The notes under the pieces are model-generated. The model made no database searches. It saw nothing but the letters and a program-made list of their open reading frames with translations, and had not been told where the DNA came from. Shown here one piece after another: positions 9,124 to 48,859 of a stretch of 64,000 nucleotides of DNA. A program made the position numbers and the translations under genes. Positions within the stretch are counted from its first letter, which is position 1. Each line of letters opens with the position of its first letter. The stretch lies in the IMG/VR virus record IMGVR_UViG_3300045988_023906; one strand, written 5' to 3'. The DNA comes from a virus.

Positions 9124-10047
9124 TTATTTACCAAAATCCCAAGGAGAAGACTCTTCTGCCTTAGGGAAAGGCATGTCACTTGAGCCTAAGTTGTTGAAGT
9201 CAGTAGCTTCTACAGTATATTCTCTAAAGGGTTTAATATCATACTCCACATTAGAGAATGCTCCGGCATTCTTTCTTTCTTGTAAGTCCTTATCTATTTC
9301 ACTGTAATTTCTTGCTCCATTTCTAAGTACTTTGTTAGTATATACTACCTGATATTGTTTTCCATCCTCAGTAGTTCTTACTCCAAACATCACCTTGACT
9401 TTATTCTTAGGCATAAGCTTAGGAACTTCATTAAGTTCAGAGAAATCTCCCTTAAACAGCTTATCCATATCAAGGGAACATTCACACTCCTCCATGTTAG
9501 CTACTTTGGGGTTCTTAACCCATTCACCATTAACATAGGAAAGTGCTTCATCAAAATTAAGATAGCTCTTAATAAATTCAATAAGTTGTATTTCTCCATT
9601 ATAGGCAGGCCTGTATTCAGTAGTAATTCTAAGGGCTTTACCAGTGCTACTTTTAAGAGTCGCTTTATTTTTCAGGTCCTCTGGGGTAGCCCAAGCACTA
9701 TAACCATATTTATCAATTACTTGTACCTTAGTTTTGTCTCTATTATACCTATAGGATTTATCTACAAAGAAAGTCATAGGAATAATTATATCTCCCTCTA
9801 CATCTGGTTTGACATAGAAAGTAACCATAACTTGAGGTACATTCTTACCATCTACCTCTCTTTCTCTCAGATATTCAGGCTCAGAGTCTATTTCTGCATT
9901 CAACAGTTTATTTCTTTCTTCTTTTGTGGGATTAACTGCTAAAACATATACAGGAGAAGCACCAATATACCTCTTAATACTTCCACCTTCTTTACTCTCT
10001 ACTGCTTTACCAAAAGCCATAAAACTAAAATTAATATTTTTATTCAT
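9124..10047 (-). CDS. hypothetical protein
   Basis: 307-aa ORF in the replication module. No motif recognised. The antisense ORF 9355-9942 is rejected. Confidence 0.6.
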   Translation of the reverse strand: MNKNINFSFMAFGKAVESKEGGSIKRYIGASPVYVLAVNPTKEERNKLLNAEIDSEPEYLREREVDGKNVPQVMVTFYVKPDVEGDIIIPMTFFVDKSYRYNRDKTKVQVIDKYGYSAWATPEDLKNKATLKSSTGKALRITTEYRPAYNGEIQLIEFIKSYLNFDEALSYVNGEWVKNPKVANMEECECSLDMDKLFKGDFSELNEVPKLMPKNKVKVMFGVRTTEDGKQYQVVYTNKVLRNGARNYSEIDKDLQERKNAGAFSNVEYDIKPFREYTVEATDFNNLGSSDMPFPKAEESSPWDFGK

Positions 10048-10105
10048 TTCTATTCAATTTATTTAATTTTACTTCTTGTTATTTTATTGCTTGTTCTTAA
10101 TGAAC

Positions 10106-10552
10106 TTAGTAAGGGAGATTGTTAGGAAAGGGAGAATCTCCCTCTGCCTTGACCTCTACTTCAGGTGCCTTCTCGGCATCATCTACTGTCTCAGGAGCAA
10201 CATTGTCAATAGCAGGCTCCTCTACATGAATTTCATATACATTAGCCCCCTCATTGAACACTACTACACCAGCCTTAGGTTCATACTTAGTAACCTTTAC
10301 AGGCTTACCATCCTTATCAACCTTACCAGTATCTTCTACCTTCTTGACAACCAAGTCTTCACTTGTGAGACCACCTGTCAAAGCCTTGACACCCATCTCA
10401 TGTCCCTCAATCTCCTCAGTCAGGGCATTATACTCTGCATTGAGTTCATCAATCTTGGCAGCAATCTTATTCTTCTTCACTACCAAAGGATTAACATTCT
10501 GTGCAATTCTTTTTACACCTGCAAACTGTCTTACTGTTAATGTCTTATTCAT
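10106..10552 (-). CDS. hypothetical protein (coiled-coil, acidic C-terminus)
   Basis: 148-aa ORF. Two overlapping plus-strand ORFs are low-complexity and are rejected. Confidence 0.55.
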   Translation of the reverse strand: MNKTLTVRQFAGVKRIAQNVNPLVVKKNKIAAKIDELNAEYNALTEEIEGHEMGVKALTGGLTSEDLVVKKVEDTGKVDKDGKPVKVTKYEPKAGVVVFNEGANVYEIHVEEPAIDNVAPETVDDAEKAPEVEVKAEGDSPFPNNLPY

Positions 10553-38564: not shown

Positions 38565-40271
38565 ATGAAGATTGTTAATTCAATTATGCCAATGAGTGAT
38601 GTAAAGGCATTAGCAGCAAGCGGACAAAAATTAAGAGTAGCAGTAACAAAAACTTCCGCACAAGGTAGGGATGCACAAAGTACTACACCCAATTTAATGT
38701 CTTTCAGTATTGATGAAAGCAGTGTGTGGTTTAATGGAAAGAAGTATGGGGTACATAAATTTAATAATGTTTCAAGCCTGAATACTAACTCAACAGCAGA
38801 ACAGGTATTGTCTGCTTTGAATGTCAGGGAATCTTCTGAACTTTATGATTTAGCCCATAAAGGTGTACTTTTCATAGATACCATTTCTGGAAATACGATA
38901 GTAAAATATGAAGATGGGGATGACACTTTCCAACTCTATGTACCAAGCTCAAATTTAGAGTCAATAGAGAGACTTACTATTAATGTATCTAGTAATAAAG
39001 TGGTAAAGTTGACCACTACATCTCATTTAATGGTTGATGATATCAGGAATACTCTAACCTCTGCTGAGACTGCCAAGGTTCTTTCAGCCGCAATGGGCAA
39101 GAAGCTCCAGGATGAGAAGTTGGCTAAGACAGATGTGGTGAACAACCTAACTACGGATGAAGCTTCAAAAGCCTTATCAGCGGCACAGGGTAAAGCGTTG
39201 AATGACAAGTTTAATGGGAACAAGATAAATATCAACTTCTCAGCTATTTCAGATTCAACAAATAATGCCACTATAAAAGGCTACATGGGGAACATAAATG
39301 GTGACACTCTTGTTAGTAAGCTTACTTATGGTGCAAATCTGGTTGACAGTAGTAGTAATGATTGGGTAATTACTTTGCAGGAGGTAAGTGATACAAAGGT
39401 ATCATTTACAGGTATTAAATTCACAGATTTTAACTTATGCAGTAAGAATGTATCAGTTACTATAAGTGGCGGTAATTATACAAATGTGACTGTTGCTCAG
39501 GATAATAGGCTTGTACCTGCTATAAACAATACCTTAACTTCAACTAGTACTAGTGAGGCTCTTTCAGCAGCTCAAGGTAAAGTTCTTAATGACAGAATCT
39601 CAGGTTTGGGCAATGTGTATAGAGTGAGGGGTACTAAGACTAACTTATCTGATGTACTAGCCCTTACTGATGCAAAGGTTGGTGATGTTTGGAATGTGAC
39701 TAATGCCTTTATTTTAGGTGATAAGCCATATCCTGCAAATACCAATGTTGTATGTATTACAGCAACTAGCTCATCTGACCACGATGGAGGAAATTGGGAC
39801 CCGTTGGGAGGTACTGTTGATTTGAATTCTTATGTGCCTAAGAGTGATATAGTTGATAACCTATCAACTTCAGATTCAAAAAAGCCTCTCTCTGCTAAAC
39901 AAGGACTTGCCCTTGCTGATATGATAACGAAATTAAAAGCTGATAAGGAGACCTATCAGCTTCCCAAAGCACTTGTAAGTGGCACACTATCCACTCAGAA
40001 TGAAATAGATACTATTCTAGGTTCCTATAGTAGCTTCAATGCCGCCCTTAATGCAGGTAAGGTAATACATGGAGTATATAAAGACAGCATCAACAGAATG
40101 AATACAGTAGCATTCTCAGCATTCAATGATACTACTAACAGTAGGGTTGAAATGTTTGCGATACTGAATAATTCTACCTTACTATATATACAGGCTACTT
40201 ATAGTGGGGCTAGTTGGGTTAGTGCTACCACAAGGGAAGAGTCTTTTAATGCAAGCATCACTATAGAATAA
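38565..40271 (+). CDS. tail fibre protein with repeated N.LTS....ALSAAQGK.LND motifs
   Basis: The ORF track starts at 38514, inside the A-run. I prefer MKIVNS at 38565. There are four copies of the (L/V)SA.QG..L motif. Confidence 0.65.
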   Translation: MKIVNSIMPMSDVKALAASGQKLRVAVTKTSAQGRDAQSTTPNLMSFSIDESSVWFNGKKYGVHKFNNVSSLNTNSTAEQVLSALNVRESSELYDLAHKGVLFIDTISGNTIVKYEDGDDTFQLYVPSSNLESIERLTINVSSNKVVKLTTTSHLMVDDIRNTLTSAETAKVLSAAMGKKLQDEKLAKTDVVNNLTTDEASKALSAAQGKALNDKFNGNKININFSAISDSTNNATIKGYMGNINGDTLVSKLTYGANLVDSSSNDWVITLQEVSDTKVSFTGIKFTDFNLCSKNVSVTISGGNYTNVTVAQDNRLVPAINNTLTSTSTSEALSAAQGKVLNDRISGLGNVYRVRGTKTNLSDVLALTDAKVGDVWNVTNAFILGDKPYPANTNVVCITATSSSDHDGGNWDPLGGTVDLNSYVPKSDIVDNLSTSDSKKPLSAKQGLALADMITKLKADKETYQLPKALVSGTLSTQNEIDTILGSYSSFNAALNAGKVIHGVYKDSINRMNTVAFSAFNDTTNSRVEMFAILNNSTLLYIQATYSGASWVSATTREESFNASITIE

Positions 40272-40281
40272 AAAAAAAGTT

Positions 40282-41988
40282 ATGAGTGCAGAAGGTAAAG
40301 AGTTTAAAGTAAATGTATCTACCGACAGAGCTACTGCAATAAGTAGCTCTGCTGGCAGTTACCCTAATGTGTTGTATTTCCCTATAGATGATGATAATGT
40401 CATCATATTTAATGGGAACATATATGATTGGAATGCAAGTGTAACTTCCCCCAAGTTAATCTCCTCAGGAGACCTGAATACATATAGGGGAACTCAATAT
40501 TTAGGTGTTTATTATGCCAATTATGGCAATAGTATAAGTAATAAACCTTCTGGAGTATCACAGTTTGCATTACATGTGCTCTTGGAGAATAATGACTCTT
40601 CGACTATACAGGTACTTTATTCAAAAAACAAGATATATACTAGAGCTTATGAGTCATCTTCTTGGTCTTCTTGGACTGAGATTGGTGCAGGAGGTGTAAC
40701 TTCTATACCTCAAGCTTCTAGTTCAGCATTAGGAGGTATAAAGATAGGGTACTCTGATAATGGCAGGAATTATGCTGTAGAGTTGGATAGTTCTGGTAAG
40801 GCTTATGTTAATGTACCATGGACAGATACAAATACAACATATAATGTTGCTACTGCTAGTGCCAATGGACTTATGAGTTCCAGTGATAAGTCCAAGCTTA
40901 ATGGAATCCAAGCAGGTGCAGATGCTGTGTCATTCAGCAGGTCTTTGTCTTCAGGTACAAAGATAGGTACCATTAATATTAATGGTGTCAATACTGACAT
41001 ATATGCTCCAACAGCAGGAGAGCCAGTTAAATATGAAGTAGCTACCTCAACTACACTAGGATTGGTCAGGATTGGGTATCCTGAGAGTGGTAAGAATTAT
41101 CCTGTTGAGCTTAATTCCTCAAATCAGATGTATGTCAATGTCCCTTGGACTGACAATAACACAACTTACTCAGCAGGAGCTGGACTTAATTTATCAGGAA
41201 CAGTTTTCTCCCTAAGGAAGGCAACACCTACTACACTAGGTGGTGTAAAGGTATCCAGCACTGAGATTAACACAATATCTACTGTTGCTGCTACTACTTT
41301 TGGTTTACAGAACAGAATATATCCTGTCCAGCTTGCTTATCCATCAGGTAGTGCAGGAACAGATGGTAATAAGGTACTTTCAGTGTATGTTCCTTGGGAG
41401 GATACTACTTATAGTGTAGTAAGTACCTCAAAGAATGGGTTAGTCAGTATGGATTCTGCATTGGCAGAGCTAGCCTACGAAGATAAGGATGCTGGTAACC
41501 TAGGTTCTCTTGCTAGATTTGGAGAGATGGGCATGTTGGAGGTTTCAACAATTATGGAAGATGACTTAGCTCTGGTTAATAAGAGTAATAGCTGGACAGC
41601 ATATCAGGACTTTAAGTCAGGTGCTGGTAATTCAGGCTCTGATATGAGATTCAAAAGGGAAGTCACATGTATGCCTGATGTGCTGGACAATCTGATGTCA
41701 TTAAATGTCATAAAGTATATATGGGAACACCCTGATGAAAATGGTATAAGATGCACTTTTGGTGTGAAAGCTGACCAGCTTCTGTCACTAGGTGGTGTAT
41801 ATGCTACTATGGTCCACAGCAGAGCTGATAAATATGATACCAAGTGGGTAGAATATGATAGATTTGGTGTGCTGGCAATCAAGGCATTACAGGAGGTTGT
41901 AATGAGGAACAAGCAACTGGAGAGCAGGATAGAATATCTTGAGGATACGATAAATTCTATGAGAAGAGTATGGGAAGAGAATTCATGA
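40282..41988 (+). CDS. tail fibre/spike with C-terminal intramolecular chaperone (peptidase S74-like) domain
   Basis: 568 aa. It has three repeats of the G.KY.VEL.SS...YVNVPWTD.NTTY type. The C-terminal SDMRFKREV...LNVIKYIWEH...FGVKADQL fits the S74 auto-cleaving chaperone. Confidence 0.75.
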   Translation: MSAEGKEFKVNVSTDRATAISSSAGSYPNVLYFPIDDDNVIIFNGNIYDWNASVTSPKLISSGDLNTYRGTQYLGVYYANYGNSISNKPSGVSQFALHVLLENNDSSTIQVLYSKNKIYTRAYESSSWSSWTEIGAGGVTSIPQASSSALGGIKIGYSDNGRNYAVELDSSGKAYVNVPWTDTNTTYNVATASANGLMSSSDKSKLNGIQAGADAVSFSRSLSSGTKIGTININGVNTDIYAPTAGEPVKYEVATSTTLGLVRIGYPESGKNYPVELNSSNQMYVNVPWTDNNTTYSAGAGLNLSGTVFSLRKATPTTLGGVKVSSTEINTISTVAATTFGLQNRIYPVQLAYPSGSAGTDGNKVLSVYVPWEDTTYSVVSTSKNGLVSMDSALAELAYEDKDAGNLGSLARFGEMGMLEVSTIMEDDLALVNKSNSWTAYQDFKSGAGNSGSDMRFKREVTCMPDVLDNLMSLNVIKYIWEHPDENGIRCTFGVKADQLLSLGGVYATMVHSRADKYDTKWVEYDRFGVLAIKALQEVVMRNKQLESRIEYLEDTINSMRRVWEENS

Positions 41989-42800
41989 CACAAATAAAGG
42001 CAGTAAAGAAGGTAGGAGGTTTCCTACCTTCTGCTACAAAACGATTTTGTACAGCCTCTTGGCTTGCAGGCCATTCTGGTATATTTGATACCAACTCCCT
42101 ACAAGGGTATGAAGCAAAAGACTTTGTGAGTGAAATGCATATAAAGCCTGCTATAGTAACAACTAAATATGAAATAACAATTCCTGAGGTGAGGGTTTCT
42201 TTTGGATTTGAAAGTGGCACTCCTCAAAGATTTACATATCTTAGTGACTCTGACCAATTATCACAGACTAAGGCAGTCTTATGTGCAGTACCTGTTGATG
42301 GTGGTCAGATTTCTTCAAGTGTATATACTCCTACTAATGGTGGTAGAGATGACAATTATGGTGTACAGTATATGCTATTCTCAGGCATGAAAATATCTGT
42401 TGTTGCAGGCACCTCACTAGCTAAGTTATACATAGTATTGTATAATGACCAAAATACCATGGTTCAGTATAATAACAAGAGCATTACCAATCTTATGTCA
42501 GGTAACAACATATATAAGCTGGCTAATGCTACTATGAGAAATAGTTCTGTTTACAGTAGCCTGTTTAATGGTGCAAATTACACAAAGACACAAGCAGTAG
42601 GTGATTCTAATGGTAATGCTACTAATTCTGTGTGGTGTGCTATGCTTCCATTGACAGATGATGGAAAATCTAATGGGAGTTATTCAGTAGGTTCAAGCAT
42701 GGAGACACCTCCCACTAATGTCAATTCTAACCAGCAACTGTACAACTTCAAGGGTTCTATAGTTTACAACAAATTAAGTTCATTTACTCCAACTACATAG
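41970..42800 (+). CDS. hypothetical structural protein
   Basis: 276-aa ORF in the fibre module. Confidence 0.55.
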   Translation: MGREFMTQIKAVKKVGGFLPSATKRFCTASWLAGHSGIFDTNSLQGYEAKDFVSEMHIKPAIVTTKYEITIPEVRVSFGFESGTPQRFTYLSDSDQLSQTKAVLCAVPVDGGQISSSVYTPTNGGRDDNYGVQYMLFSGMKISVVAGTSLAKLYIVLYNDQNTMVQYNNKSITNLMSGNNIYKLANATMRNSSVYSSLFNGANYTKTQAVGDSNGNATNSVWCAMLPLTDDGKSNGSYSVGSSMETPPTNVNSNQQLYNFKGSIVYNKLSSFTPTT

Positions 42801-42802
42801 CT

Positions 42803-43417
42803 ATGAGAAAGATATTAGTAAGTATTATATCAGTGATTATGCTGGCTTCCATATCCTGTTCCATGTATTACTGCAATGGGTATAAGAAAATATCTGATGA
42901 GTTGGCTGTTGCAGTGAATAACAATAAGGCATACTCCTTGGAGAACAGTTCCCTGAAGAAGGAAAATAGAGTGTATAAGCTAACTGCTGAGCAGCTTGAG
43001 TATTACAGTGATTCCATTACTGTTGAAATGGACAGGATTAGAAAGGAGTTGAAGATAAAGGATAAGGATTTGCAATACTTACAATATCTGTTATCTACAT
43101 CAGAAAGGATAGATACTGTTACTTTCCAAGATACCATATTCAGTGAAACAACATTTCATGTTGATACTCTGATTGGGGATAAATGGTATCAGTTGAAGCT
43201 GGGAATGAAATTCCCTAATGTCATTACAGTGCATCCTAAATTTGTAAGTGAGAAATACATAGTTACACATAGCAAGAAAGAGACTGTAAATCCTCCTAAG
43301 AAATTTTTTCTGTTTAGATGGTTTCAGAAGAAACATAGAGTGGTGGAAGTTACTATTGTGGAAAATAGTCCTTATGTGAATAATAAGCAGCAAAAATTTA
43401 TTGAAATAATTAAATGA
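42803..43417 (+). CDS. membrane-anchored/lipoprotein-like protein (lysis cassette member)
   Basis: 204 aa. The N-terminal hydrophobic segment ends in ASISCS. A coiled-coil region follows. Confidence 0.5.
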   Translation: MRKILVSIISVIMLASISCSMYYCNGYKKISDELAVAVNNNKAYSLENSSLKKENRVYKLTAEQLEYYSDSITVEMDRIRKELKIKDKDLQYLQYLLSTSERIDTVTFQDTIFSETTFHVDTLIGDKWYQLKLGMKFPNVITVHPKFVSEKYIVTHSKKETVNPPKKFFLFRWFQKKHRVVEVTIVENSPYVNNKQQKFIEIIK

Positions 43418-43418
43418 C

Positions 43419-43799
43419 ATGATTGACCTAGGTATATTAATTACTGGAGGAGTAGGGATAATAACCACAGTAATCAGTGGTTGGACTTCTTGGTTCTTTG
43501 CAAGAAGAAAGTATAATAGTGAGGTAGATAATAACCTCATAGAGAACATGCAGCAGTCTTTGGAGTTTTATAAGAAGTTGTCTGATGACAACAAAAACAG
43601 ACTTGACGAGGTTCTTAAAAGAAATGCAGAGCTGGAACAGGAGATAAAGGATTTAAGGAAGCAGATGTTCAGTCTCATGAACTCCATCTGTACTGACCTT
43701 ACTTGTCAGTTGAGAAAAAGAAACTTGAATTTATTTAATGAGCAAAATGGAACTGATAGTAGACAGGAAATGGAAGAAACAGAGTTACACGATAAGTAA
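43419..43799 (+). CDS. single-TM coiled-coil protein (holin/spanin-like)
   Basis: 126 aa. The TM helix is GILITGGVGIITTVISGWTSWFF, followed by a charged coiled coil. Confidence 0.5.
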   Translation: MIDLGILITGGVGIITTVISGWTSWFFARRKYNSEVDNNLIENMQQSLEFYKKLSDDNKNRLDEVLKRNAELEQEIKDLRKQMFSLMNSICTDLTCQLRKRNLNLFNEQNGTDSRQEMEETELHDK

Positions 43800-44211
43800 C
43801 CTCCTTGTAGATGGGAAGTGGTTCTGTAATGTACTTGAAGATACTGATAGAGGATTAGATGACAGCATGAGTGTCGCTAAAATCAAATCCTTAAAGAAAT
43901 CAGGCATTACAGCAATCCCTAGCGGAACTTATGATGTAACTTTAGATGTATATAGCCCTAAGTTTGAGTCTAAATCTTTCTACAAAGAAACATGCAATGG
44001 CAAATTGCCCAGACTTCTTAATGTAAAGGGGTTTGATGGTATCCTTATACATGCAGGTAATACAGATAAGGATACTTCAGGATGTCTCTTGGTAGGTGTA
44101 AACTCTGAAGTTGGTAAGGTTCTGAATAGTCGGGATACATTCAGGAAGCTATATAAGCTACTTCAAGAGGGCAAGAATAGAGGTGAGAAAATAACCATAA
44201 AAATTCTATGA
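43738..44211 (+). CDS. putative cell-wall hydrolase (DUF5675 / YkuD-like H...GC motif)
   Basis: 157 aa. It contains TISNLLVDGKWFCNVLEDTDRGL and ILIHAGNTDKDTSGCLLVG. Confidence 0.45.
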   Translation: MSKMELIVDRKWKKQSYTISNLLVDGKWFCNVLEDTDRGLDDSMSVAKIKSLKKSGITAIPSGTYDVTLDVYSPKFESKSFYKETCNGKLPRLLNVKGFDGILIHAGNTDKDTSGCLLVGVNSEVGKVLNSRDTFRKLYKLLQEGKNRGEKITIKIL

Positions 44212-44262
44212 TATGGCAAAGAAGTGTGGTTGCAAAGGAAAAGGTAAGAACAATAGAGGTAA

Positions 44263-44523
44263 ATGATTATGGATGCAAGAATAGTTTCAAATCAAGTTAT
44301 AAATAGCCTTCAAATATCTGTACTGAAGGAGGTGCCTTCAGGGAACTTCAATCCCGGAGTCAACTTCCTACTGAAGAATATATCTGATAATGATGTGGAG
44401 GTTACTATAATTCCAGCAGGACAAAAGGATAGCATAAAGACTATTCTAGGTGTTGGATGGAATCCAGAGATATGTAAAGGTGTTATAAATGCCCCTTCAG
44501 GAGTTCTTCAATATGGATATTAA
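44263..44523 (+). CDS. hypothetical protein
   Basis: 86-aa ORF. Confidence 0.45.
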   Translation: MIMDARIVSNQVINSLQISVLKEVPSGNFNPGVNFLLKNISDNDVEVTIIPAGQKDSIKTILGVGWNPEICKGVINAPSGVLQYGY

Positions 44524-44526
44524 GAT

Positions 44527-46623
44527 ATGGCAACAGCAATTATAGGTACATTAAAGCATCTTCCTAAGGCATCAATACTGCCTACTTTACCAGAGACAGG
44601 TAGACCTAACAGGATATATTTTATCCCCAATGAAGACCCTACAGAAGATAATAGGTATAATGAATATCTATGGGTAAAGGATGAGACTTATCCTGATGGC
44701 CATTGGGAGCTTGTTGGTCCTGCCACAATAGACCTGACTGATTATGCCACTAAGGAAGAGGTAAGTGATTTGGAAGACTCCATAGGTGAGCAAATAAAGA
44801 AGTATTTGCCCTTATCAGGAGGTACAATGGATAAGGGCAGCAACATATCCTTCCCATCAGATAGTGGGAGTACTGTGTATAATGGTTCTGGAATATCAGT
44901 GGGTGGCAAAGCCAGTACTGACATCCTACATGCAGCAGGAGGCACTACTAAAATCAAGACCTTGAATGGAGAATCTATGTTAGGAGAAGGTAATATTGTA
45001 ATAGACCCTTCAAGTGTTCCAGTATCTTTAAGCTGGTATAATAGGACTAGCAGTCAGCAGGATGCCACAATAAACCTGACAATTGGAGATACCACAGTAA
45101 ACCTATTCCCTAATATATTCAAATTATTTAAGGCTGGTAAAGTTTCCACTTCCGAGTCCCTTAGTATAGAACTTACTGCTAATCCTGGGGTAAGTGGGAC
45201 ACCACAAGTTCCTACCTCATTATGCCAGTGGAGCATACCTTTGGCTGACAGTAATACCGCAGGTATTATATCAAGTGAGGATAAGGCTAAGTTAGATAAC
45301 CTATCTGACCCAAAGAATTTGCTAGCTTATGGTGTGGAATGGGATTCTACCAACAGTAGCCCTGTACTTACTAGAATAGGTAACATGAGCCTGCATAAGT
45401 CTCTCCCAATACAATCAGCATTAAGAGGATGTGTATGCCAAGGTAAAAGGATAATGTATTATTTGGACCCAAATGACTGGTCTAAGAAAGCAGATGGTAC
45501 AGATTCCAGATTGGATGGATATGATGGTACTGTACAGGTAGAAGTACCTGAATTTTATTTGTGGTCTGAAACGGAAGGAACCAAATCCAGAGTATATGTG
45601 TCTACCCAAAAAGTAGTTTCTTATGCTATAAGGATTCCTCATATGTTGGTAGATGCTTATAGGAGTACTGTACTTAATGAAGTGCCTGAGGATATGGGCT
45701 ATTTATCTACACTTCAAGTAAATAGTGCTATTTCAGTTGTAAATACCTCTTCTTATTGTAGAGGAGGAAATAATAGCTCTAGCAGTGATACCTACTTGGA
45801 ATCGGATAAATTCAGGACTAGTTTAGGAAAACCTAGAACAAACACTAGTAGGGCAAACTTCAGAACTTATGCCAAAAATGCTGGCAAGATGTTGCTTACT
45901 TATGAGTACTACAAATCAATATTCTATTGGTTGTATGTTATAGAATATGCAAACTTCAATAGTCAGGCAAACTATGTTGAAGATTTGACTGAAGATGGAT
46001 ATAGACAGGGAGGGCTTGGCAATGGAGTTACTACTTGGAGTGATGCTGTTTGGAATACTTATAATGGCAGATGCCCAATAACTCCATGTGGGTATTGTAA
46101 TGAGTTTGGTAACTTTACTGGAATTAAGGACTTGGTAATTCCTGCTTCAGATGGTATCAGTACCGTAACTTTCAAAGTACCAAGGTGGAGAGGATTTGAT
46201 AATGTGTTTGGAGATATTTGGACTAATCTGGATGGTATCCTAATAGATACTTCTGTCAGTGCCAGTAAGTCCACACCAAACTATGTGTATATTATAAATG
46301 ACCCTGATAAGTTCACTGATACTTTGTCAGATGCACCTACCAATGCGGATAGAGTAGTAGTATCAGGACATACAGGAGGGTATATTACAAAGTGGGCATT
46401 AGGGGAGTATGCAGATATAATACCTGTTAGTGTTGGTGGTTCTGCAACTACTTATATGTGTGACTGTTACTGGGTAGATTCTGATAATACTCAGAATACA
46501 CTACTGGTTGGTGGCCGGGCTCATTATGGTTCTAATGCTGGCTTGGCTTACTTCTTTTCTGCTCATGGTTCGGGTTATGTTTCTGCCCATGTCGGCTTTA
46601 GGTGCTTAACACTGATAAGCTGA
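44527..46623 (+). CDS. tail fibre / receptor-binding protein; DGR target gene (variable repeat at its C-terminus)
   Basis: 698 aa. The C-terminus GGRAHYGSNAGLAYFFSAHGSGYVSAHVGFRC is the coding copy of the 106-bp repeat. Confidence 0.75.
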   Translation: MATAIIGTLKHLPKASILPTLPETGRPNRIYFIPNEDPTEDNRYNEYLWVKDETYPDGHWELVGPATIDLTDYATKEEVSDLEDSIGEQIKKYLPLSGGTMDKGSNISFPSDSGSTVYNGSGISVGGKASTDILHAAGGTTKIKTLNGESMLGEGNIVIDPSSVPVSLSWYNRTSSQQDATINLTIGDTTVNLFPNIFKLFKAGKVSTSESLSIELTANPGVSGTPQVPTSLCQWSIPLADSNTAGIISSEDKAKLDNLSDPKNLLAYGVEWDSTNSSPVLTRIGNMSLHKSLPIQSALRGCVCQGKRIMYYLDPNDWSKKADGTDSRLDGYDGTVQVEVPEFYLWSETEGTKSRVYVSTQKVVSYAIRIPHMLVDAYRSTVLNEVPEDMGYLSTLQVNSAISVVNTSSYCRGGNNSSSSDTYLESDKFRTSLGKPRTNTSRANFRTYAKNAGKMLLTYEYYKSIFYWLYVIEYANFNSQANYVEDLTEDGYRQGGLGNGVTTWSDAVWNTYNGRCPITPCGYCNEFGNFTGIKDLVIPASDGISTVTFKVPRWRGFDNVFGDIWTNLDGILIDTSVSASKSTPNYVYIINDPDKFTDTLSDAPTNADRVVVSGHTGGYITKWALGEYADIIPVSVGGSATTYMCDCYWVDSDNTQNTLLVGGRAHYGSNAGLAYFFSAHGSGYVSAHVGFRCLTLIS
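46499..46604 (+). repeat. DGR variable repeat (VR)
   Basis: Base-by-base alignment to 46697-46802 (offset 198) gives 80 identities and 26 mismatches. Every mismatch is opposite an A in the other copy. Confidence 0.85.
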
Positions 46624-46696
46624 TTTGATAAAGAAAAGAAAATCATAGTTTTACTATGTAGGACATATATTATACGACTTGGTTAGTTCTAATTGT

Positions 46697-46802
46697 AAAA
46701 ACTAGTTAGTAGCAAGGCTAATAATGGTTCTAATGCTAGCTTGGCTAACTTCAATTCTACTAATAGTTCAGGTAATGTTAATGCCAATATCAGCTTAAGG
46801 TA
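46697..46802 (+). repeat. DGR template repeat (TR)
   Basis: This is the non-coding copy. In the VR frame it is AAT/AAC-rich (NNGSNASLANFNSTNSSGNVNANISLRY). Homology ends at non-A mismatches on both sides. Confidence 0.85.
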
Positions 46803-46848
46803 TTTTTTTTTTGTTTTCTCTTTAAATTTTATATGTGATATATGTTCC

Positions 46849-46862
46849 TTGCCTCTAGGCAA
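46849..46862 (+). other. small hairpin TTGCC-TCTA-GGCAA in the TR-to-RT spacer
   Basis: Read directly. In functional DGRs this spacer region is part of the priming RNA. Confidence 0.3.
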
Positions 46863-46928
46863 AAGATAAATAGTTTAAAAAGTACTAGTAAGAGTTGCTG
46901 AAAGTGCTTAATATGAAACACCTAAATT

Positions 46929-47345
46929 ATGGTTAAAAGAAAAGGAAATTTGATTTTATCCCTATGCAGGATGGATAATATTCTCTTGGCAGATACAAAT
47001 GCTAGGAAAGCTAAAAGGAGGAGTAGAAGATTTATAGAAAAACATGATAAGAATATTATAGAAGAGGATAGAAACTACCCTAGAAGGCATGAAGATGATG
47101 GTTTCATGGATGTGTTTGATTCTAGAAGCAATAGGTTTGGTGACAGGTTCAGAGACTCTGGCATGAGAGGAAATGACATGGACAGAATAATAAAGTACAT
47201 GAGACATTCCATGAATGATGGAGAACACTTTACTGAATCTGAAGCTATGGATTTGGTATCTAATATGAGGGTGGCAGAAAGTATAGTGGAGAAAAGTTTG
47301 ATATACATAAGGCAAAGGAAATTTGTGAAAGGTATAGAGGAGTGA
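46929..47345 (+). CDS. 138-aa ORF whose first ~45 aa resemble a DGR reverse-transcriptase N-terminus; RT catalytic motifs are absent (truncated or chimeric RT remnant)
   Basis: KRKGNLILSLCRMDNILLADTNARKAKRRSRRFIEKHDKNIIE resembles RT N-termini. The remainder (RNYPRRHEDDGFMDVFDSRSNRFGDRF...) has no YxDD or finger/palm motifs. Confidence 0.45.
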   Translation: MVKRKGNLILSLCRMDNILLADTNARKAKRRSRRFIEKHDKNIIEEDRNYPRRHEDDGFMDVFDSRSNRFGDRFRDSGMRGNDMDRIIKYMRHSMNDGEHFTESEAMDLVSNMRVAESIVEKSLIYIRQRKFVKGIEE

Positions 47346-47539
47346 TTCCTGTGTCTGCAACTCCTACTGATGTGTATGTGGCAATCAACTCACAGTATCA
47401 TGATTATGTTGAGCTGTTTAAGAGTTGGTTTGGTGATAATGTAGACCAAAAGATAATAGAATCTGCTATTATATTCTGGTTCAAAGATGTGGATTGCAAA
47501 GCCGAAAACAAGGTAGTAGAATATCTTGGAGAATACTAA
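47342..47539 (+). CDS. hypothetical small protein
   Basis: 65-aa ORF followed by a terminator. Confidence 0.4.
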   Translation: MIPVSATPTDVYVAINSQYHDYVELFKSWFGDNVDQKIIESAIIFWFKDVDCKAENKVVEYLGEY

Positions 47540-47545
47540 TAAGAT

Positions 47546-47577
47546 AAGGGTAAGAGGTAATCTTACCCTTTCTTTTT
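47546..47577 (+). terminator. rho-independent terminator
   Basis: AAGGGTAAGA-GGTAA-TCTTACCCTT followed by TCTTTTT. Confidence 0.8.
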
Positions 47578-47653
47578 GTCCATATTGCAAGTATTTTTAT
47601 ATGCTACTAATAAGTGTTTTATTTACTATCTTGCAGATATGCAAAACTTTACT

Positions 47654-47692: not shown

Positions 47693-48859
47693 ATGGAAGA
47701 AGAACTTAGCTTAGATAACATCTTAGGAGCAGAGGAGATTGAGAATCTGTTTGTAGAAGATGAGGATACACAGGATACCCCACCTGCAAATGGGGAGCCT
47801 CCTAAGAAAGAGGAGGAGCCAAATAAGGATAAAGAAGAAACTACTGAGGTTGTTGATGTAGATAACTTATTTACTGATACACCAGAGAGCGTAGGTAGTG
47901 GAAAAGAAAATACAGAGGAAAAGGAAGATACCACTCCTAAAGGGGATGGCACTTCTCCCAAAAACTTCTACTCTTCCATTGCCAAAGCCTTGAAAGAGGA
48001 AGGTATCTTCCCAGCCCTTGATGATGAGGGCTTATCTAAGGTTAAAGACCCTGAAGACTTTAGAGATTTAATTGACCAACAGATAAAGGCAGGTCTTGAT
48101 GAAAGACAGAGAAGAATTGATGAAGCCTTGAATGCTGGAGTTGAACCTACAGAGATTAGAAAGTATGAGAATACTATAAACTTCCTTGATTCTATTAAGG
48201 AAGAGAATATCTCTGATGAAGGTGATAAGGGAGAAAAACTTAGAAAAGACCTGATTTATCAAGACTTTATCAATAGAGGTTATAGTAAGGAAAGAGCTGC
48301 AAGAGAAGTGCAAAAGTCTTTCAATGCTGGTACTGATATTGATGATGCAAAAGAGGCTTTGAAAAGTAATATTGACTTCTTCAAAGATAAGTATGATGAG
48401 CTTGTCAATGAGGCTAAGTCAGAAGCAGAACAGGAAGAGAAAGAAAGAAAGAAACAGGCTGAAAAGCTTAAATTATCAATCCTTAATGACAAGGATGTGT
48501 TTGGGGATTTATCAATAGATAAATCAACAAGACAGAAGGTTTATGATAACATAGCTAAGCCTGTGTATAAAGACCCAGAGACAGGAGAGTACTTTACTGC
48601 TATCCAAAAATATGAGATGGAGAACAGAACAGACTTCCTAAAGAACATTGGGTTACTTTTCACACTAACTGATGGCTTTAAGAACCTTGATGGTTTGGTG
48701 AAAGGTAAAGTAAAGAAAGAAGTAAAGAAAGGTCTTAGAGAGCTGGAACATACTCTCAACAACACAGCAAGAACCTCAGATGGTAATCTAAAGTTTGTCA
48801 GTGGAGTTGATGAGGACCCTGAATCTTTCATAGGAAAAGGGTGGAATCTTGATGTCTAA
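47693..48859 (+). CDS. acidic coiled-coil protein, scaffold-like
   Basis: 388 aa, strongly Glu/Asp/Lys-rich. It lies immediately upstream of the putative major capsid gene. Confidence 0.5.
   Translation: MEEELSLDNILGAEEIENLFVEDEDTQDTPPANGEPPKKEEEPNKDKEETTEVVDVDNLFTDTPESVGSGKENTEEKEDTTPKGDGTSPKNFYSSIAKALKEEGIFPALDDEGLSKVKDPEDFRDLIDQQIKAGLDERQRRIDEALNAGVEPTEIRKYENTINFLDSIKEENISDEGDKGEKLRKDLIYQDFINRGYSKERAAREVQKSFNAGTDIDDAKEALKSNIDFFKDKYDELVNEAKSEAEQEEKERKKQAEKLKLSILNDKDVFGDLSIDKSTRQKVYDNIAKPVYKDPETGEYFTAIQKYEMENRTDFLKNIGLLFTLTDGFKNLDGLVKGKVKKEVKKGLRELEHTLNNTARTSDGNLKFVSGVDEDPESFIGKGWNLDV

What the first reader, a model, noticed from the sequence alone, without database searches (positions are those of the whole stretch)
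46803..47590. The DGR reverse transcriptase is missing; only an N-terminal remnant fused to unrelated sequence remains
A DGR RT of about 300-400 aa is normally found right after the TR. Here there is only a 138-aa ORF (46929-47345).

Its first ~45 aa (KRKGNLILSLCRMDNILLADTNARKAKRRSRRFIEKHDKNIIE) look like the segment before motif 1 of DGR and group-II RTs. From memory, the Bordetella phage bRT begins ...RNLIDQITTWENLLDAYRKTSHGKRR.... The rest (RNYPRRHEDDGFMDVFDSRSNRFGDRFRDSGMRGNDMD...) has no RT motif and no YxDD. Only about 650 nt remain before the terminator at 47546, which is too little for an RT in any frame. No Avd-like accessory ORF is present either.

There are three possibilities:
- The DGR is a recent fossil with a frozen VR.
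- The RT acts in trans, from the unseen part of this genome or from another element in the host.
- The chimeric ORF has a new role.

An orphan TR/VR pair that still shows a perfect A-only pattern is unusual.
Basis: partly seen in the sequence, partly recalled or inferred. Interest (0 to 1): 0.7.

Follow-up and report, generated by a model that had tools for sequence, protein, structure and literature searches.

The report
Deletion-killed DGR in a crAss-like phage
In this crAss-like gut phage a 4.7-kb deletion cut off the reverse transcriptase of a tail-fibre hypermutation cassette after codon 48 and fused the stub to a broken neighbouring gene; this leaves a recently dead cassette of a kind already reported in another crAss-like phage group.

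Summary
ORF 46929-47345 begins with codons 1-48 of a diversity-generating retroelement (DGR) reverse transcriptase (RT). These codons differ by one residue from relatives' RT and are 77% identical to an intact 344-aa RT. The ORF then continues into unrelated sequence.

That sequence is codon 47 onward of a neighbouring phage gene, the cr85_1 gp071 homologue (DUF7841). Compared with relatives that keep an intact 338-aa RT (L074, L078), the window has lost 4,724 nt across a 10-nt microhomology (AGAGGATAGA, 47063-47072). The lost stretch held RT codons 49-338 and seven downstream genes. A second 10-nt deletion at 47265/47266 frameshifts the gp071 remnant.

The target gene, VR (46499-46604), TR (46697-46802) and spacer RNA are intact, and all 26 TR/VR mismatches lie at TR adenines. 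The same junction occurs in complete ~98.4-kb genomes from three assembly sources. Those genomes differ by 7 SNPs in 20 kb but not at all in the VR. RT-intact sibling genomes differ 12 times within the VR.

No other RT was found in 82.7 of 98.4 kb, and the remainder has no room for one. The verdict is a recent fossil with a frozen VR. The stretch downstream of the RT is deletion-prone across this lineage. Incomplete DGR cassettes are already published for genus I crAss-like phages, so interest is modest.

The parts
44527..46623 (+). DGR target gene: 698-aa tail protein, orthologue of cr85_1 KNV41_gp076 'tail protein'
   Evidence: ORF. It is 98.4% identical in DNA to cr85_1. Its cluster at 90% identity holds 1,910 distinct sequences.
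46499..46604 (+). Variable repeat (VR), ending 19 nt before the stop codon of the target gene
   Evidence: 106-nt ungapped match to the TR with 26 mismatches, all at TR adenines. Across relatives the variable columns fall at 27 of 37 TR-A positions against 12 of 69 non-A positions.
46697..46802 (+). Template repeat (TR), intact; two point differences from the consensus TR of RT-intact relatives (46743 A>G, 46789 G>A)
46803..46928 (+). T-run plus DGR spacer RNA region between TR and RT. It is conserved in L015 and L016 and includes a hairpin. Positions 46845-46921 resemble Rfam RT-17.
   Evidence: Alignment A1. RT-17 (RF03020) scores 37.5 bits against a gathering score of 40.4, E=4e-6.
46929..47072 (+). 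Remnant of the DGR reverse transcriptase gene: codons 1-48 only, upstream of all catalytic motifs
   Evidence: One residue differs from L016 RT; 77% identical to intact L015 RT. DNA matches L016 and L074 up to 47072.
47063..47072 (+). Deletion junction: 10-nt microhomology AGAGGATAGA shared by RT codons 45-48 and gp071 codons 47-50. 4,724 nt are missing relative to L074.
47063..47539 (+). Pseudogene remnant of the gp071 homologue (DUF7841), codons 47-208. Codons 47-119 are in frame with the RT stub. A 10-nt deletion (TGTATCACAC) at 47265/47266 puts the rest out of frame, where it reads as ORF 47342-47539.
   Evidence: tblastn 87.5% and 94.4% to cr85_1 gp071 in two frames. DNA alignment. Pfam PF25223 at 70.1 bits for ORF 47342-47539.
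47546..47580 (+). Terminator-like stem-loop and T-run after gp071. It belongs to gp071, not to the DGR.
   Evidence: the same element follows intact gp071 in relatives.
47693..48859 (+). First intact gene after the deletion: 388 aa, homologue of cr85_1 gp070, just upstream of the major capsid protein gene

Best explanation
This is a recently inactivated DGR.

Ancestral state (seen intact in relatives L073, L074 and L078): tail-protein target gene with a 3' VR, then TR, spacer RNA, a 338-aa RT, a 34-aa ORF, ORF135, ORF100 (HTH), a GIY-YIG endonuclease, VOG3488, 'putative tail protein', 'nuclear-pore-like' protein, gp072, gp071 (DUF7841), gp070 and the major capsid protein (MCP).

What happened: in the window's lineage a single illegitimate recombination across a 10-nt microhomology joined RT codon 48 to gp071 codon 47 and removed 4,724 nt. 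A second 10-nt deletion then frameshifted the gp071 remnant. ORF 46929-47345 is therefore an accidental fusion of two pseudogene pieces.

Consequence: without an RT no mutagenised cDNA can be made from the TR (inferred from established DGR biology). The VR is frozen in the state of its last homing event, which is why the A-only pattern still looks perfect.

Context: the loss is collateral damage in a deletion-prone, dispensable accessory stretch. Close relatives carry many different deletions there, some sparing the RT and some removing RT and/or TR.

Shown here: the homology of both halves, the junction, the missing genes, the reality of the junction and the invariance of the VR. Inferred: the order of the two deletions, the lack of function of the fusion ORF, and the reason the region is deletion-prone.
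For: - The RT stub and the gp071 remnant are identified by direct homology.
- The junction shows 10-nt microhomology. Flanks are 98.0% and 96.7% identical to RT-intact L074, with 4,724 nt missing.
- Intact RT exists in this lineage: P0018 is 338 aa, 99% identical to the reconstructed RT, in a cluster of 201 members, on genomes up to 102.5 kb.
- The exact chimeric ORF is found on about 12 contigs, including complete ~98.4-kb genomes from ENA, JGI and Logan assemblies.
- Those genomes differ from the window by up to 7 SNPs in 20 kb, none of them in the VR.
- The exact target protein shows the same contig counts as the chimeric ORF.
- Positive control: RT-intact siblings L072 and L076 differ at 12 positions in the 106-nt VR against about 9 events in 16.6 kb elsewhere.
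- All 8 RT-intact loci have different VRs, and nearly all their mismatches (199 of 203 in seven loci; 24 of 25 in L071) are at TR adenines.
- L001, L004, L012 and L017 share one TR deletion and have nearly the same VR.
- No RT or any of the lost genes is found in window + L063 + L064, which is 82.7 of 98.4 kb.
Against: - The TR, the spacer RNA and the RT start are still intact. That would also fit an element kept for use with an RT supplied in trans, although recency explains it equally well.
- The carriers of this junction may come from few donors or related samples, so the VR invariance rests on a shallow sample.
- About 15.7 kb of the genome was not seen directly.
Confidence: 0.9

Rival explanations
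1. The DGR is still active because an RT is supplied in trans, either from the unseen part of the same genome or from a co-infecting RT-intact relative whose TR and spacer are nearly identical.
For: TR, spacer and VR are intact and the spacer is conserved with RT-intact relatives. RT-intact relatives circulate in human gut samples. From my own knowledge rather than a test here, trans supply of RT works experimentally in the Bordetella phage BPP-1 system.
Against: The VR is identical in all readable carriers of the junction although they have accumulated up to 7 SNPs elsewhere, and the exact target protein and the chimeric ORF have the same contig counts. RT-intact siblings show 12 VR changes for a similar background divergence. 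No RT is found in 82.7 of 98.4 kb. The remaining 15.7 kb corresponds to 16.2 kb of RNA-polymerase and small genes in cr85_1, which leaves no room for one.
Confidence: 0.05
2. The chimeric 138-aa ORF (RT N-terminus + gp071 middle) has acquired a new function and is maintained by selection.
For: It is an uninterrupted ORF with the native RT start and upstream region, and it is conserved exactly in about 12 contigs.
Against: Those contigs are nearly identical overall (99.96-100% over the ~20 kb compared), so conservation says nothing about selection. The gp071 part lacks its N-terminus, and its DUF7841 domain is split by a 10-nt frameshifting deletion, ending in 19 out-of-frame residues. Relatives truncate gp071 at more than ten other positions or delete it entirely. 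No family matches the fusion.
Confidence: 0.03
3. The junction or the frameshift is an assembly or sequencing artefact, and the real genome has an intact RT.
For: TR/VR repeats and strain mixtures can confuse assemblers. An exact search for the junction found nothing in the viral contigs and metagenome contigs collections.
Against: The same junction and frameshift are present in contigs from three independent pipelines (a k119-named contig in ENA, which looks like MEGAHIT naming; JGI; Logan) and at least five sample accessions. A 10-nt microhomology is far below assembler k-mer sizes. Genome length (98.4 kb against 100.7-102.5 kb for RT-intact relatives) fits a real deletion.
Confidence: 0.02

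Closest known systems
DGR of crAssphage LMMB and the incomplete DGR cassettes of genus I crAss-like phages (Morozova et al. 2020, PMC7290462)
   Same: Same architecture: target gene with VR, then TR, then RT, with no avd, and a tail-fibre target. LMMB RT is 56% identical to L015's intact RT, and the C-terminal part of the target is about 53% identical to loci that appear to be of this type. That paper also reports that most genomes (73%) have incomplete cassettes with truncated RT, with or without TR, in a highly variable region.
   Different: The window belongs to a different family: its closest named relative is Kahnovirus oralis cr85_1 (Steigviridae), not Intestiviridae genus I. Here the exact deletion, its microhomology, the fusion partner and the RT-intact parental form are resolved, and the freezing of the VR is shown by comparison with RT-intact siblings.
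Bordetella phage BPP-1 DGR (Mtd / TR / Avd / Brt), the prototype DGR
   Same: Adenine-specific TR-to-VR mutagenesis of the C-terminus of a receptor-binding tail protein. The TR is followed by a structured spacer RNA and then the RT gene. This comparison is from established knowledge, not tested here.
   Different: There is no Avd gene, and the RT is reduced to 48 codons, so the element cannot work on its own.
cr85_1 (Kahnovirus oralis, NC_055883) at the same locus
   Same: Same target gene (98.4% DNA identity), also with a dead DGR.
   Different: cr85_1 lost the TR, spacer and roughly RT codons 1-140 and keeps an unannotated RT fragment (about codons 143-269). It retains VOG3488, put_tail, nucpore-like, gp072 and an intact gp071. 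This is an independent decay route.

Membership tests
Diversity-generating retroelement (functional, self-sufficient) | DGR-clade reverse transcriptase with catalytic motifs (RVT_1, YxDD) | tested here: not met
   Only codons 1-48 remain, and the RVT_1 domain of the intact homologue spans residues 75-258. No RVT_1 or PHROG RT hit for the 138-aa ORF. No other RT in the window or in 82.7 kb of the genome.
Diversity-generating retroelement (functional, self-sufficient) | TR/VR pair whose mismatches are confined to TR adenines | tested here: met
   106 nt, 26 of 26 mismatches at TR adenines, P about 2e-16. One of these is a TR point mutation.
Diversity-generating retroelement (functional, self-sufficient) | VR at the 3' end of a target gene for a ligand-binding protein | tested here: met
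   The VR ends 19 nt before the stop codon of the 698-aa tail protein. The fold of the C-terminal domain was not determined: no Pfam or PDB sequence match.
Diversity-generating retroelement (functional, self-sufficient) | IMH / IMH* asymmetry at the 3' ends of VR and TR | tested here: inconclusive
   The sequences diverge right after the repeat (VR ...GGTGCTTAACACTG, TR ...GGTATTTTTTTTTT). No functional IMH was defined here.
Diversity-generating retroelement (functional, self-sufficient) | Ongoing diversification of the VR | tested here: not met
   The VR is identical in all readable carriers of the junction. RT-intact siblings differ 12 times in the VR.
Diversity-generating retroelement (functional, self-sufficient) | Accessory protein Avd | tested here: not met
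   No such ORF here or in RT-intact relatives. It is also absent from published crAss-like DGRs (PMC7290462), so it does not define this subgroup.
Pfam PF25223 (DUF7841) | Score above the gathering threshold over the domain | tested here: inconclusive
   ORF 47342-47539 scores 70.1 bits (cut-off 25.2) for profile positions 55-112. The 138-aa ORF scores 19 bits (below the cut-off) for positions 4-33. The domain is present but split by a frameshift. Intact cr85_1 gp071 scores 129 bits.
Rfam RF03020 (RT-17 RNA, a motif upstream of RT genes) | Score at or above the gathering score | tested here: not met
   37.5 bits against 40.4, E=4e-6. Related loci also stay below the threshold.

The most novel reading that the evidence does not exclude
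The stretch from the DGR to gp071 may not simply be decaying. It may be a site-preferential breakage zone. Among close relatives at least 19 simple deletion junctions were mapped, and their ends cluster: 7 pairs of ends lie within 2 nt of each other where 0.64 are expected. Three independent deletions, including the window's 10-nt one, end at the same position in gp071. A polymorphic GIY-YIG endonuclease gene sits inside the region. Recurrent double-strand breaks (from a homing endonuclease, hairpin cleavage or host defence) followed by microhomology repair could therefore be driving repeated loss of the DGR and of seven accessory genes. If so, DGR loss in crAss-like phages would be a predictable by-product of a specific mechanism.
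Probability: 0.2. Interest if true: 0.5.

Novelty: new member of a known kind. Interest (0 to 1): 0.3.

Why it matters
The result gives a nucleotide-level example of how a phage DGR dies, with both the parental RT-intact form and the derived form circulating in human guts. That pairing is a natural experiment: the same tail fibre either can or cannot hypermutate. It could be used to ask whether losing the DGR changes host range or persistence of an abundant gut phage.

For annotation, TR/VR pairs with a perfect A-only pattern should not be taken as evidence of an active DGR. Short ORFs after a TR can be RT stubs fused to neighbouring genes.

The result also shows that seven genes between the RT and gp071 (including the 'putative tail protein', conserved across crAss-like families), together with intact gp071, are dispensable in this lineage.

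Tried and rejected
- **Profile searches of the 138-aa ORF.** Pfam and PHROGs give no RT signal and only a weak DUF7841 hit. This is uninformative for the stub, and direct homology was needed.
- **Exact search for the junction.** A 46-mer found nothing in viral contigs or metagenome contigs. The exact-protein look-up found it instead.
- **First survey of relatives.** IMG/VR and GenBank loci suggested that no close relative (0 of 16) has an intact RT. A protein search corrected this by finding intact RTs in Logan and ENA assemblies.
- **RT-made deletions.** I considered that the deletions arise from template-switched cDNA. I rejected this as a general explanation, because the TRs next to junctions in L003, L009 and L010 keep all their adenines.
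- **CRISPR cut at the gp071 hot spot.** Two 20-mers flanking the recurrent breakpoint gave no hit for one and only chance matches in a Comamonas genome and a Saccharibacteria MAG for the other, neither in phage-like sequence. This is a weak test, with one genome per species.
- **Lost genes moved elsewhere.** No trace in window + L063 + L064.
- **Second VR or TR.** None.
- **Sequence search of the target C-terminus against PDB.** No match.

Full report
**1. What the window is**

The region lies in the structural module of a crAss-like phage. Window 39528-46655 is 98% identical to uncultured phage cr85_1 (Kahnovirus oralis, Steigviridae, NC_055883). The replication module is only about 70-80% identical, so the genome is mosaic.

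The genes around the finding are, in order:
- lysis genes;
- a 698-aa tail protein (44527-46623);
- the finding;
- a 388-aa homologue of cr85_1 gp070 (47693-48859);
- the major capsid protein (MCP).

**2. Checking the observation**

TR/VR pair. It is real. VR 46499-46604 and TR 46697-46802 align without gaps over 106 nt. All 26 mismatches lie at TR adenines (26 of 37 A; chance about 2e-16). It is the only such pair in the window and in 17 kb of extra genome sequence.

Spacer. Between the TR and the ORF lie a T-run and a conserved spacer with a hairpin. The spacer is almost unchanged in a relative with an intact RT (L015). It resembles the Rfam RT-17 motif just below threshold (37.5 against 40.4 bits).

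ORF 46929-47345. It starts with 48 residues that differ at one position from the RT of relative L016. They are 77% identical to the intact 344-aa RT of L015 (RVT_1, PHROG 'reverse transcriptase'). After residue 48 the RT similarity ends. No RT-like sequence exists elsewhere in the window in any frame.

**3. What the 'unrelated sequence' is**

Residues 49-119 of the ORF, and the next ORF (47342-47539) in another frame, are codons 47-208 of a conserved neighbouring gene. That gene is cr85_1 KNV41_gp071 (208 aa, Pfam DUF7841). The two pieces are 87.5% and 94.4% identical to it at the protein level.

At the DNA level the window follows the RT of L016 up to 47072 and follows gp071 from 47063 onward. 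The 10 nt AGAGGATAGA are common to both parents. Inside the gp071 remnant a further 10 nt (TGTATCACAC) are missing at 47265/47266, which shifts the frame. The 138-aa ORF is thus an accidental fusion of an RT stub and a gp071 fragment, ending in 19 out-of-frame residues. The terminator at 47546-47570 is the normal gp071 terminator.

**4. The parental form**

A protein search with the reconstructed RT found an intact 338-aa RT, 99% identical, in a cluster of 201 members. Its contigs include genomes of 100.7 and 102.5 kb.

Loci L073, L074 and L078 show the full gene order:
- target (VR), TR, RT (338 aa), a 34-aa ORF;
- ORF135, ORF100 (HTH), a GIY-YIG endonuclease, VOG3488;
- 'putative tail protein', 'nuclear-pore-like' protein, gp072, gp071;
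- gp070, MCP.

Window 39528-47072 matches L074 597-8144 at 98.0%. Window 47063-51201 matches L074 12859-17017 at 96.7%. The window therefore lacks 4,724 nt: RT codons 49-338, the 34-aa ORF, seven genes and the first 46 codons of gp071.

**5. Is the junction real?**

The exact 138-aa protein is encoded on about 12 contigs. These include complete 98.4-kb genomes from ENA (ERZ27274391), JGI (3300014949, 3300014547) and Logan (SRR2155317, SRR2155337). They are 99.96-100% identical to the window over 20 kb.

Three pipelines give the same junction and the same frameshift, and a 10-nt repeat cannot mislead an assembler. Whether the underlying donors are independent is unknown.

**6. Frozen VR or RT in trans?**

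Carriers of the junction. One carrier differs from the window at 7 positions in 20 kb, all in other tail genes and none in the VR. The exact target protein and the chimeric ORF show the same contig counts.

RT-intact genomes. By contrast, all eight RT-intact loci have different VRs, and nearly all their mismatches are at TR adenines. The two RT-intact siblings L072 and L076 differ at 12 positions within the 106-nt VR, against about 9 events in the other 16.6 kb. The target's cluster at 90% identity holds 1,910 distinct sequences.

Across relatives in general. Variable VR columns coincide with 27 of 37 TR-A positions, against 12 of 69 non-A positions. The four genomes that share one TR deletion (L001, L004, L012, L017) share almost the same VR. 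This is what a VR frozen at the moment of DGR loss looks like.

An RT elsewhere in the same genome. Window + L063 + L064 cover 82.7 of 98.4 kb and contain no RT and none of the lost genes. The unseen 15.7 kb corresponds to 16.2 kb of RNA-polymerase subunits and small genes in cr85_1, which has no RT there either. The absence of an RT in the unseen part is inferred from synteny and length, not seen directly.

**7. The wider pattern**

The stretch between the target gene and gp070 is deletion-prone in this lineage.
- In 16 close loci from IMG/VR and GenBank where the RT region can be assessed, none has an intact RT. They show at least 19 simple junctions, with 0-14 nt of microhomology. These remove TR, RT parts, accessory genes or gp071 in many combinations.
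- cr85_1 itself lacks the TR and keeps only an unannotated RT fragment, codons 143-269.
- RT-intact genomes also carry different deletions downstream of the RT (L071, L072/L076, L075, L077).

The RT loss in the window therefore looks like collateral damage from deletions in a dispensable accessory region. In more distant crAss-like loci the RT is full-length and colinear in about 30 of 31 cases.

Junction ends cluster more than chance predicts: 7 pairs lie within 2 nt where 0.64 are expected. This uses a uniform null that ignores selection and shared ancestry. Three different deletions (the window's 10-nt one, L006 and L010) end at the same place in gp071. I have no tested explanation for the clustering:
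- A CRISPR-protospacer test was negative but weak.
- An RT template-switch origin is contradicted by unmutated TRs next to several junctions.
- Hairpin loops coincide with some ends.
- A GIY-YIG endonuclease gene is polymorphic in the region.

**8. Comparison with what is known**

DGRs with the order target-VR-TR-RT and no avd are published for genus I crAss-like phages. In that group only 16% of genomes have a complete cassette, and 73% have incomplete cassettes with truncated RT, with or without TR (Morozova et al. 2020, PMC7290462). A 2023 review cites DGRs only for that group (PMC10136315). RT genes are annotated in many crAss-like genomes.

The window is therefore a new member (Kahnovirus-like, Steigviridae) of a known kind: a decayed crAss-like DGR. 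What this analysis adds is the exact event, the parental form, the identity of the fusion partner, and the contrast with RT-intact siblings that shows the VR is frozen.

**9. Verdict**

Trans RT activity is about 0.05, a new role for the chimeric ORF about 0.03, and an artefact about 0.02.

Interest is modest (0.3). The case is clean and well resolved, but the phenomenon is already described in a sister group. The clustering of breakpoints is the only part that might hide something new.

Noticed in passing
window 47265-47266 (within ORF 46929-47345): A second 10-nt deletion (TGTATCACAC) frameshifts the gp071 remnant. Its right end coincides, to within 1-2 nt, with the right ends of two much larger independent deletions in L006 (about 2.2 kb) and L010 (about 4.6 kb).
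   Followed up: partly
L001, L003-L012, L014, L016, L017, L019, L057, L071-L077 (region between the target gene and gp070): Almost every close relative carries a different set of deletions here: at least 19 simple junctions with 0-14 nt of microhomology. Junction ends cluster, with 7 pairs within 2 nt against 0.64 expected. The clusters are at window 46654/46655, at 46834/46835, at RT codons 280-284 and at gp071 codon 118.
   Followed up: partly
L016 10190-10290 (TR position): The 'TR' of L016 has lost most of its adenines to G, T or C and carries a 7-nt deletion, as if mutagenised cDNA had homed into the TR itself. L016's RT is also frameshifted near codon 110. L007's TR has two A-to-G changes.
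   Followed up: no
window 46743 and 46789: The window's TR differs from the consensus TR of eight RT-intact relatives at two positions (A>G and G>A). The second creates one of the 26 apparent 'A mismatches' (VR 46591).
   Followed up: yes
window 46845-46921: The spacer between TR and RT matches Rfam RT-17 RNA just below the gathering score (37.5 against 40.4 bits) and RT-14 more weakly. Related loci also stay below threshold, so crAss-like DGR spacers may be an unmodelled relative of these motifs.
   Followed up: partly
L034, L036-L040, L044-L048, L055 (RT genes); L042: Full-length colinear RT genes of more distant crAss-like loci contain 2-8 in-frame TAG codons, and L042 has two TGA codons, with no other stop codons. 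This pattern would fit stop-codon recoding in those lineages.
   Followed up: no
L073, L074, L078 at 9765-10358: A 197-aa GIY-YIG endonuclease gene sits between ORF100 and VOG3488 in some RT-intact genomes and is absent from others (cr85_1, L003). Several relatives have the MCP gene interrupted by an insertion of about 0.84 kb (L005-L008, L010, L019), and L002 has several with endonuclease genes.
   Followed up: no
cr85_1 NC_055883 22163-22543 (L001 5164-5547): The RefSeq genome of Kahnovirus oralis holds an unannotated RT fragment (codons 143-269, including the YADD motif) directly after the tail protein gene. It has no TR, so its VR is also orphaned.
   Followed up: yes
L001 6206-8553 (absent between window 47072 and 47063): The 'putative tail protein' (homologue of Carjivirus communis KP06_gp61, about 61% identical), the 'nuclear-pore-like' protein, gp072 and gp071 are conserved across crAss-like families. 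Yet they are missing or broken in many complete-length genomes of this lineage, so they appear dispensable.
   Followed up: partly
window 44527-46623: The target protein's cluster at 90% identity contains 1,910 distinct sequences, a measure of how much VR diversity this one tail protein has in public data.
   Followed up: no
window 1-22000 against 39528-64000: The genome is mosaic relative to cr85_1: the structural module is 94-98% identical and the replication module about 70-82%. The window's genome also has a LAGLIDADG endonuclease gene and a HicA/HicB-like pair just outside the window (L064) that cr85_1 does not annotate.
   Followed up: no
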